64,000 nt of DNA from the human T2T-CHM13v2.0 reference genome, Homo sapiens. Both the position numbers and the translations under genes were made by a program. The notes beneath the pieces are model-generated. The model worked only from the letters and a program-made list of their open reading frames with translations, was not told the origin of the DNA and searched no databases. Below are positions 58,500 to 59,504 of this stretch, one piece after another; the first letter of the stretch is position 1, and each line of letters begins with the position of its first letter. Location of the stretch: contig CP086569.2 of NCBI GenBank assembly GCA_009914755.4, positions 12,704,001 to 12,768,000 on the forward strand, read 5' to 3'.

Positions 58500-58800
58500 C
58501 CACTCATGCCTGTAATCCCAGCACTTTGGGAGGCTAGAGGCAGGCAGATCATGAGGTTAGGAGATTGAGACCATCCTGGCTAACAGGGTGAAAACCCGTC
58601 TCTACTAAAAATACAAAAAATTAGCCGGGCGCCTGTAATCCCAGCTACTCGGGAGGCTGACGCAGGAGAATGGCGCAAACCCAGGAGGCGGAGCTTGCAG
58701 TGAGCCAAGATCGTGCCACTGCACTGCAGCCTGGGTGACAGAGCGAGACTCCGTCTCCAAAAAAAAACAAAAAACAAAAAACAAAAAAACAAAAAACAAA
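58500..58800 (+). mobile_element. Alu SINE copy 1 of tandem Alu-plus-flank array (5'-truncated, about 20 bp internal deletion), tail (CAAAAA)n
   Basis: ccactcatgcctgtaatcccagcactttgggaggc...gtctccaaaaaaaaacaaaaaacaaaaaacaaaaaaacaaaaaacaaa followed by the flank gtagagacatctcttataaaacctaagaaatagatggcacat. Confidence 0.88.
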
Positions 58801-58867
58801 GTAGAGACATCTCTTATAAAACCTAAGAAATAGATGGCACATTGGCACATCAGAAAATCATTTTTAG

Positions 58868-59220
58868 GCCGGGCGCAGTGGCTCCAGCCTGTAATCCCAA
58901 CACTTTGGGAGGCTGAGGCGGGCAGGTCCTCGAGGTCAGGAGATCGAGACCATCCTGGCTAACACGGTGAAACCCCGTCTCTACTAAAAATACAAAAAAA
59001 ATAGCCAGGCGTAGTGTCGGGCGCCTGTAGTCCCAGCTAGTCGGGAGGCTGAGGCAGGAGAATGGCGTGAACCTGGGAGGCGGAGCTTGCAGTGAGCCGA
59101 GATCACACCACTGCACTCCAGCCTGGGAGACAGAGTGAGACTCCATCAGAAAGGAAAGGAGAGGAAAGGAGAGGGAAGGGGAAGGGGAAGGGGAAGGGGA
59201 AGGAGAAGGGAAGGGAACCA
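58868..59220 (+). mobile_element. Alu SINE copy 2 of tandem array, tail evolved to (GGAAGG/GGGGAA)n
   Basis: ggccgggcgcagtggctccagcctgtaatcccaacac...ctccatcagaaaggaaaggagaggaaaggagagggaaggggaaggggaaggggaaggggaaggagaagggaagggaacc followed by the same flank gtagaaagatatctcttataaaacctaagaaatagatggcacat. Confidence 0.9.
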
Positions 59221-59282
59221 AAGTAGAAAGATATCTCTTATAAAACCTAAGAAATAGATGGCACATCAGAAAATCATTTTCA

Positions 59283-59504
59283 GGCCGGGCGCAGTGGCTG
59301 ACGCCTGCAATCCCAGCACTTTGGGAGGCCGAGGTGGGCGGATCAAGAGGTCAGGAGGTCGAGACCATCCTGGCTAATATGATGAAACCCCGTCTCTACT
59401 AAAAATACAAAAAATTAGCCGGGCATGGTGGTGGGCGCCTGTAGTCCCAGCTACTCGGGAGGCTGAGGCAGGAGAATGGCGTGAACCCGGGAGACGGAGC
59501 TTGT
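59283..59504 (+). mobile_element. Alu SINE copy 3 of tandem array, 3'-truncated at ...gggagacggagcttg where it abuts the L1
   Basis: ggccgggcgcagtggctgacgcctgcaatcccagcac... ends abruptly at position about 225 of Alu and is followed directly by L1 ORF2 antisense sequence. Confidence 0.9.

What the first reader, a model, noticed from the sequence alone, without database searches (positions are those of the whole stretch)
58500..59504. Tandemly duplicated Alu-plus-flank unit (about 2.5 copies); tails diverged into different microsatellites
Three same-orientation Alus sit head to tail, each followed by the same about 60 bp non-Alu sequence: gtagagacatctcttataaaacctaagaaatagatggcacat[tggcacat]cagaaaatcattttt at 58801-58866, and gtagaaagatatctcttataaaacctaagaaatagatggcacatcagaaaatcattttc at 59221-59282. 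The unit that was duplicated is therefore Alu + tail + flank (about 370-415 bp), which points to segmental tandem duplication (for example unequal crossover between Alus) rather than independent insertions. After duplication, the copy-1 tail became (CAAAAA)n and the copy-2 tail became (GGGGAA/GGAAGG)n, a compact example of Alu poly-A tails as microsatellite nurseries. Copy 1 is also 5'-truncated and has an internal deletion.
Basis: seen in the sequence. Interest (0 to 1): 0.55.

Follow-up and report, generated by a model that had tools for sequence, protein, structure and literature searches.

The report
Old Alu-mediated local tandem duplication
Three neighbouring Alu repeats in primate DNA are separated by two copies of the same 64-70 bp stretch, which is best explained by an old misaligned exchange between two adjacent Alus; this is an ordinary, well-known kind of rearrangement with no sign of function.

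Summary
Three same-strand AluY-type elements lie head to tail: 58503-58758, 58867-59149 and 59283-59503. The first two are each followed by an A-derived tail and the same non-Alu spacer (58797-58866 and 59219-59282). The spacers share an exact 34-mer found nowhere else in the window, and differ by 2 substitutions in 62 aligned bases plus two indels.

The spacer is the only evidence for duplication. The Alu bodies form a star phylogeny with no shared non-CpG changes.

The best reading is a misaligned, homology-guided exchange between two parental Alus. One was 5'-truncated, the other full-length, and they lay about 65 bp apart. The exchange gave Alu-S-hybrid Alu-S-Alu, and happened soon after the Alus inserted.

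That the two tails diverged from one tail is plausible but not shown. An exchange within the tails, or an Alu insertion with a very long target-site duplication, would give different tails without any divergence.

Alu 3 is not cut by a normal insertion. It joins 26 unassigned bases and then an antisense L1 that lacks its 3' 1.6 kb, which marks a deletion or end-joining scar.

No orthologous sequence could be obtained. This is a known phenomenon of low interest.

The parts
58503..58758 (+). Alu 1: AluY-type, 5'-truncated (consensus positions about 16-281), with a 12-bp internal deletion (positions 138-149). Taken to be the upstream parental Alu.
   Evidence: blastn against the AluY consensus; alignment; Rfam 7SL hits at 58508-58604 and 58624-58759
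58759..58796 (+). Tail 1: A9 then (C A6-7)n, an A-tail-derived microsatellite of period 7
   Evidence: TRF 58762-58800, period 7, consensus AAAAAAC, 5.4 copies
58797..58866 (+). Spacer copy S1 (non-Alu), including the 8-bp tandem duplication TGGCACAT at 58835-58850; ends in T5 + A just before Alu 2
   Evidence: Exact 34-mer shared with S2 and unique to these two sites; alignment; TRF
58867..59149 (+). Alu 2: full-length AluY-type, the proposed hybrid or junction Alu; has no short TSD of its own
   Evidence: Rfam 7SL hits at 58868-58983 and 59004-59146
59150..59218 (+). Tail 2: all-purine (GAAAG)n/(GGGGAA)n compound microsatellite, containing a G4-type motif at 59173-59199
   Evidence: TRF rows 59149-59217; regular-expression scan
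59219..59282 (+). Spacer copy S2 (non-Alu); ends in T4 C A just before Alu 3
59283..59503 (+). Alu 3: AluY-type, consensus positions 1-221, with its 3' end removed by a later rearrangement. Taken to be the downstream parental Alu.
   Evidence: Rfam 7SL hit at 59284-59398
59504..59529 (.). 26 nt of unassigned junction or filler DNA between Alu 3 and the L1
   Evidence: Unique in the window at up to 3 mismatches; no k-mer source beyond chance; neither Alu nor L1 homology
59530..64000 (-). Antisense L1. Its 5' UTR start lies at the window end, and it is 3'-truncated inside ORF2 just after the RT region. It marks the right-hand limit of the Alu array; it is context, not part of the duplication.
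   Evidence: Pfam: ORF1 domains 62082-62827(-), EN 61561-61911(-), RVT_1 60004-60466(-); a second L1 copy at 52895-53267 reads on past the break

Best explanation
This is a neutral relic of an old local tandem duplication, created by a misaligned homology-guided exchange between two neighbouring same-orientation AluY-type elements.

Inferred history:
1. A 5'-truncated Alu (now Alu 1) and a full-length Alu (now Alu 3) inserted independently, about 65 bp apart.
2. While both were still young and nearly identical, the downstream Alu on one chromatid or template paired with the upstream Alu on the other. An exchange occurred within the Alu body or at its 3' end or tail.
3. The exchange gave Alu1-tail-S-[hybrid Alu 2]-tail-S-Alu3, adding one period of about 416 bp.
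4. Since then all copies have decayed independently. Each Alu lies about 3-4% from the consensus at non-CpG sites; the spacers picked up 2 substitutions and two indels; the A-tails matured into an (A6C)n and a (GGGGAA)n microsatellite.
5. A later, separate event removed the 3' end of Alu 3 and joined it, through 26 nt of filler, to a 3'-truncated antisense L1.

Shown: spacer homology, the layout, the absence of a short TSD for Alu 2, the star-like Alu divergence, and the non-TPRT right-hand junction.

Inferred: the two-parent history, the pathway (meiotic or sister-chromatid unequal crossover versus replicative template switching), the exchange point, and the timing. No function is proposed.
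For: - The spacer 34-mer is exact in both copies and found nowhere else (0 of 100 shuffles). The spacers match at 60/62 aligned positions.
- Homology between periods starts at the same CAAAG at the end of both tails and runs to the first base of the next Alu.
- The layout of 3 Alus and 2 spacers, with an intact full-length middle Alu, is the expected product of an exchange at homologous Alu positions.
- The middle Alu has the full 5' end of the downstream Alu rather than the truncated 5' end of the upstream one, as that model predicts.
- Alu 2 lacks an ordinary short TSD; the best match is 5 nt.
- All three Alus are the same AluY type.
- None of Alu 2's 9 non-CpG changes is shared with a neighbour, so the duplication falls within the first 28% or less (95% bound) of the elements' lifetime. 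That is when the two Alus were most alike and exchange is easiest.
[quoted passage not shown] The 663 chimpanzee-specific Alu recombination-mediated deletions have a median size of 615 bp, and 68% are under 1 kb, so close Alu pairs are the commonest substrates (PMC2041999). Alu/Alu rearrangements leave an intact chimeric Alu (PMC6071635). Alu tails are a main source of A-rich microsatellites (PMC3812793).
Against: - The Alu bodies give no positive evidence. Pairwise non-CpG divergence of 6.6-8.2% equals the summed distances to the consensus, and is the same as for unrelated young Alu pairs in the window (mean 7.6%).
- The only shared derived sites are CpG transitions (positions 48 and 58 for Alu 1/2, position 11 for Alu 2/3). 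These number fewer than the background sharing between unrelated pairs (mean 3.6).
- No mosaic breakpoint can be located in Alu 2.
- The tails do not align at all.
- The candidate TSD of Alu 1 (AGAAAGTTA / AGAAAGATA) is not significant (p about 0.07-0.17).
- The 3' flank of Alu 3 is lost, so its TSD cannot be checked.
- Spacer divergence (3.2%, 95% CI 0.4-11%) is nominally lower than the Alu divergence, though not significantly so.
- No orthologous locus could be examined.
Confidence: 0.72

Rival explanations
1. Alu 2 is an independent retrotransposition into the end of Alu 1's A-tail, and it generated an unusually long target-site duplication of about 64-70 bp, equal to the spacer. Its 5' end was either placed exactly at the start of Alu 3 or joined within Alu 3 by homology.
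For: - S1-Alu2-tail2-S2 has the formal shape of an element flanked by direct repeats.
- Alu 2 shares no non-CpG change with either neighbour, and its tail is unrelated to tail 1. Both are expected for an independent copy.
- The left edge of S lies at an A-tail, a favoured endonuclease target (general knowledge).
- 'Extremely long TSDs' have been reported for L1 insertions in cultured cells (PMC2912911).
Against: - The TSD length peak is 14-16 bp, and the large survey collected only TSDs of 5-30 bp (PMC2912911). A TSD of 64-70 bp would be exceptional.
- The TSD would also have to span exactly from one pre-existing Alu to the next, which the exchange model gives automatically.
- Alu 2's non-CpG age (3.9%) is not lower than that of its neighbours (3.3%).
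Confidence: 0.1
2. All three Alus descend from one Alu+tail+spacer unit. The unit was first duplicated by a homology-independent event (slippage, or microhomology-mediated tandem duplication), and the array then expanded to at least 3 units and was later trimmed at both ends.
For: - The period structure of about 2.4 units.
- All copies are the same Alu type.
- The right end of the array has certainly been trimmed by a later event.
Against: - It needs extra events: loss of the first 15 bp of Alu 1, and at least two rounds of duplication.
- No derived non-CpG site is shared by all three Alus or by any pair, so every round would have had to follow insertion almost at once.
- The sequence left of Alu 1 shows no spacer homology.
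Confidence: 0.1
3. The duplicated piece is not a local DNA duplication. Instead it is part of a mobile composite: an Alu with 3' transduced flank (Pol III read-through to the T-run that ends the spacer), or a larger repeat family whose consensus contains the spacer.
For: Each spacer ends in T5 or T4 immediately before the next Alu. That is where a Pol III transcript of the upstream Alu would stop.
Against: - The spacer is not followed by a second A-tail, and the copies are adjacent rather than dispersed.
- There is no further copy in 64 kb.
- A survey of 118,489 full-length AluY elements confirmed no Alu-mediated transduction (bioRxiv 10.1101/2024.04.29.591526).
- The T-run is equally explained as part of the target site of the downstream Alu.
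- No repeat library was available, so the composite-family version is untested.
Confidence: 0.03

Closest known systems
[quoted passage not shown]
   Same: Two same-orientation Alus a few hundred bp apart act as substrates. The product keeps an intact full-length junction Alu and adds exactly one Alu-to-Alu period. The size class (about 0.4 kb) matches the short-range bias of ARMD events (PMC2041999; PMC6071635).
   Different: The published catalogues list deletions identified by species comparison, whereas this is the reciprocal gain. The chimeric nature of the junction Alu cannot be demonstrated, because the event predates nearly all private mutations.
Microsatellite birth from Alu poly(A) tails
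   Same: Tail 1 is an (A6C)n repeat and tail 2 a purine-only (GAAAG)n/(GGGGAA)n repeat, each lying exactly where an Alu A-tail should be. This is the general pattern reviewed in PMC3812793.
   Different: The added claim that these two repeats are sister copies of one tail is not established here.
Retrotransposon insertion with a very long target-site duplication
   Same: An element with its tail is flanked by direct repeats.
   Different: The repeat length is 64-70 bp against a usual 14-16 bp (PMC2912911), and the repeat spans precisely the gap between two older Alus.

Membership tests
Alu (primate 7SL-derived dimeric SINE), AluY-type | Dimeric body of about 282 bp, homologous to the Alu consensus and to 7SL RNA in both monomers | tested here: met
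   88-95% identity to the AluY consensus. Rfam Metazoa_SRP hits in each monomer, below the gathering score as expected for Alus. The consensus was cross-checked against 11 other Alus of the window.
Alu (primate 7SL-derived dimeric SINE), AluY-type | 3' A-rich tail and flanking short target-site duplications | tested here: inconclusive
   A-derived tails are present after Alu 1 and Alu 2. The Alu 1 TSD candidate is not significant, Alu 2 has no short TSD, and the 3' flank of Alu 3 is deleted.
Alu/Alu-mediated tandem duplication | The non-Alu DNA between the Alus is present twice, in the same order and orientation, with the copies being true homologues | tested here: met
   Exact 34-mer shared, 60/62 identity, unique in the window
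Alu/Alu-mediated tandem duplication | The junction Alu is intact and in register, meaning the breakpoints lie at homologous positions | tested here: met
   Alu 2 aligns to consensus positions 1-279 with only 1-nt indels
Alu/Alu-mediated tandem duplication | The junction Alu is a chimera: its 5' part matches the downstream parent and its 3' part the upstream parent | tested here: inconclusive
   The full-length 5' end fits the downstream parent. The only shared derived sites are 3 CpG transitions, no more than background homoplasy.
Alu/Alu-mediated tandem duplication | The ancestral or orthologous allele has two Alus and one spacer | not testable with these tools
   No primate genomes are available. 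Spacer and flank k-mers are absent from the metagenome, prokaryote-genome and viral collections.
Known composite repeat or Alu 3' transduction | The spacer belongs to a dispersed repeat consensus, or is followed by its own poly(A) tail and TSD | tested here: not met
   No second A-tail follows the spacer and there is no other copy in the window. No Dfam/Repbase library was available for a genome-wide test. No Alu transduction was confirmed among 118,489 AluY elements.

The most novel reading that the evidence does not exclude
The middle Alu may be a bona fide retrotransposition with a target-site duplication of about 65 bp that spans exactly the gap between two older Alus, with its 5' end captured by homology to the downstream Alu. 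That would be a natural example of Alu cDNA resolving by annealing to a neighbouring Alu, a hybrid of insertion and recombination. Alternatively, the 416-bp period may still vary in copy number in living populations.
Probability: 0.1. Interest if true: 0.3.

Novelty: already known. Interest (0 to 1): 0.1.

Why it matters
It matters little. The locus is a clean small illustration of two textbook processes: rearrangement between neighbouring Alus, and the decay of Alu A-tails into microsatellites.

It carries one useful caution. Here the Alu bodies hold no trace of the duplication, and only the 65-bp unique spacer reveals it.

The locus could serve as a phylogenetic marker if orthologues were compared. 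There is no indication of a gene, a regulatory role or an unusual mechanism.

Tried and rejected
- **Orthologous or allelic copies.** I searched for a spacer 24-mer and a left-flank 26-mer among host contamination in the metagenome and prokaryote-genome collections, and for the spacer 24-mer in the viral collection as well. All searches returned nothing. No cross-species dating or polymorphism check was possible.
- **TRF.** It does not report the roughly 416-bp period, because the tails do not align. The gap-free repeat finder and MAFFT do show it.
- **Mosaic test of Alu 2.** No informative non-CpG sites were found.
- **TSD tests.** The Alu 1 candidate is not significant, and Alu 2 has none.
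- **Templated origin of the 26-nt filler.** No source beyond chance was found in the window.
- **Remainder of the L1 3' end, or any spacer-like DNA, left of Alu 1.** No homology was found for 57192-58502 anywhere in the window.
- **Bacterial promoter/terminator scan.** It returned nothing, and is irrelevant for primate DNA in any case.
- **Rejected: three independent insertions plus chance.** The spacer homology rules this out.
- **Rejected: Alu 2 inserted at the junction of a pre-existing S-S tandem.** There is no short TSD.
- **Rejected: assembly artefact.** The copies differ by about 11%, so this is not a mis-join of identical reads.
- **Rejected: SVA-like composite.** The Alus here are sense-oriented and full-length.

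Full report
**What the window is.** This is Alu-rich catarrhine-type primate DNA. blastn with an AluY consensus finds about 45 Alu copies in 64 kb. I wrote the consensus from memory. It differs from the majority consensus of 11 other young Alus in this window only at six CpG-decay columns, so it is a sound yardstick.

**Checking the observation.** The sequence and blastn show three + strand Alus:

| Element | Window position | Consensus positions | Identity to AluY |
|---|---|---|---|
| Alu 1 | 58503-58757 | 16-281 | 88.4% |
| Alu 2 | 58867-59147 | 1-279 | 92.5% |
| Alu 3 | 59283-59503 | 1-221 | 94.6% |

- Rfam's metazoan 7SL model hits each monomer of each Alu on the + strand, which is an independent confirmation.
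- Alu 1 lacks consensus positions 1-15 and 138-149.
- TRF describes tail 1 as an (AAAAAAC)n repeat at 58762-58800. Tail 2 is a purine-only compound (GAAAG)n/(GGGAAG)n repeat at 59149-59217.
- The repeated spacer is real. A 34-mer occurs exactly at 58809-58842 and 59233-59266, nowhere else in the window at up to 3 mismatches, and in 0 of 100 shuffles.
- In the whole-unit alignment, homology resumes at the same CAAAG at the end of both tails and runs to the base before the next Alu. S1 is 58797-58866 and S2 is 59219-59282.
- The spacers differ by 2 substitutions in 62 aligned positions, one 2-bp indel, and an 8-bp tandem duplication in S1.
- In-register spacings are 379-392 bp and 414-416 bp.

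**What the Alu bodies say.** They add nothing for or against duplication.
- Non-CpG distances to the consensus are 3.3%, 3.9% and 3.3%.
- Pairwise non-CpG distances are 6.6%, 7.2% and 8.2%. These equal the sums of the individual distances, and match unrelated young Alu pairs in the window (mean 7.6%).
- No non-CpG derived state is shared by any pair. The only shared states are CpG transitions: positions 48 and 58 for Alu 1/2, and position 11 for Alu 2/3, where Alu 1 has no sequence. Background pairs share 3.6 on average.
- If Alu 2 is a duplicate of its neighbours, the duplication therefore came early. With none of Alu 2's 9 non-CpG changes shared, it falls within the first 28% or less of the elements' lifetime (95% bound).
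- Spacer divergence is 3.2% (95% CI 0.4-11%). That is compatible with the Alu figure: P(2 or fewer substitutions) is 0.12-0.22, and Fisher p = 0.25.

**Target-site duplications.**
- Alu 2 has no ordinary short TSD. The best match between its 5' flank and the DNA after its tail is 5 nt.
- The candidate for Alu 1 (AGAAAGTTA upstream, AGAAAGATA at the start of S2) is not significant against window-wide nulls (p about 0.07-0.17).
- The 3' flank of Alu 3 is missing.

**The right edge.** Alu 3 does not end at an insertion.
- Pfam places L1 ORF1 domains at 62082-62827(-), the endonuclease at 61561-61911(-) and reverse transcriptase at 60004-60466(-).
- The window ends in the reverse complement of the L1 5' UTR start (recognising that motif rests on my own knowledge of L1). 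The L1 is therefore antisense, and its 3' part should lie to the left.
- A second L1 copy (52895-53267) aligns up to window 59530 and then reads on into ORF2, whereas this copy switches to 26 unassigned bases and then Alu 3.
- L1 insertions are truncated at the 5' end, not the 3' end (established knowledge). The junction is therefore a deletion or end-joining scar, or less likely an endonuclease-independent insertion.
- The filler has no source in the window beyond chance.
- Nothing in 57192-58502 resembles L1 or the spacer.

**Best explanation.** Two parental Alus about 65 bp apart underwent a misaligned, homology-guided exchange. The upstream one was 5'-truncated and the downstream one full-length. 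The product was Alu1-tail-S-hybrid-tail-S-Alu3.
- This accounts for three Alus with two spacers, and for an intact, in-register middle Alu.
- It accounts for that Alu having the full 5' end of the downstream parent, and for its lack of a TSD.
- The early timing fits, since exchange is easiest between young, nearly identical Alus.
- Such events leave an intact chimeric Alu and may run through template switching rather than classical crossover (PMC6071635). I cannot tell those pathways apart.

**The tails.**
- If the exchange lay in the Alu body, tails 1 and 2 are sisters of a then-pure poly(A) tail. They matured separately into different microsatellites, a known fate of Alu tails (PMC3812793).
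- If the exchange lay in the tails, tail 2 is mostly the downstream parent's tail, and no divergence is needed.

**Rivals.**
- *Insertion of Alu 2 with a TSD of about 65 bp.* This fits the independent look of Alu 2 and its tail. It needs an exceptional TSD (the usual peak is 14-16 bp; PMC2912911) that happens to span exactly the gap between two Alus.
- *A one-unit array.* This needs extra events and is not favoured by the truncated Alu 1.
- *Alu transduction or a composite family.* The copies are adjacent, the spacer has no second A-tail, and a survey of 118,489 AluY elements confirmed no Alu transduction. No repeat library was available, so this reading is rejected on indirect grounds only.

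**Limits.** No primate genomes could be queried, and k-mer scans of the available collections were empty. Dating, polymorphism and the ancestral state therefore remain untested.

**Verdict.** The tail claim is unproven. The phenomenon is already known and of low interest.

Noticed in passing
window 59503-59530 (with the L1 extending to 64000): Alu 3 is cut at consensus position 221 and is joined through 26 unassigned bases (TACACTCTATAGATGTACTGTAATTG) to an antisense L1. That L1 keeps its 5' UTR start but lacks its 3' end of about 1.6 kb. This is a non-TPRT junction: a deletion or end-joining scar, or an endonuclease-independent L1 insertion. The other L1 end lies beyond the window.
   Followed up: partly
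window 59148-59217, motif 59173-59199: Tail 2 is a roughly 70-nt all-purine tract containing GGG(AAGGGG)4. This is a canonical G-quadruplex-type and polypurine (possible triplex) motif, about 300 bp from the rearrangement scar.
   Followed up: no
window 58835-58850: An exact 8-bp tandem duplication (TGGCACAT x2) is present in spacer copy 1 only. It is a small slippage event that arose after the spacers separated.
   Followed up: yes
window 58861-58865 and 59277-59280: Both spacers end in a T run (T5, T4) just before the next Alu. This would be the first Pol III stop for read-through transcripts of Alu 1 and Alu 2. It is probably just part of the A/T-rich target site of the downstream Alu.
   Followed up: partly
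window 20738-21123: The last 100 bp or so of an Alu (consensus 183-281) recur in tandem directly after position 276, with no A-tail between them. This is another small Alu-internal duplication or nested truncated insertion.
   Followed up: partly
window 59002-59053, 59416-59467, 58678-58737(-): Sub-threshold Rfam hits to mir-1268 and mir-3135. They fall inside Alu right arms and look like ordinary Alu sequence, since these miRNA families are Alu-derived.
   Followed up: no
window 58288-58302: An A15 run lies about 200 bp left of Alu 1 inside otherwise unique DNA (57192-58502 has no repeat in the window). It may be the tail of an old, unrecognised retrocopy.
   Followed up: no
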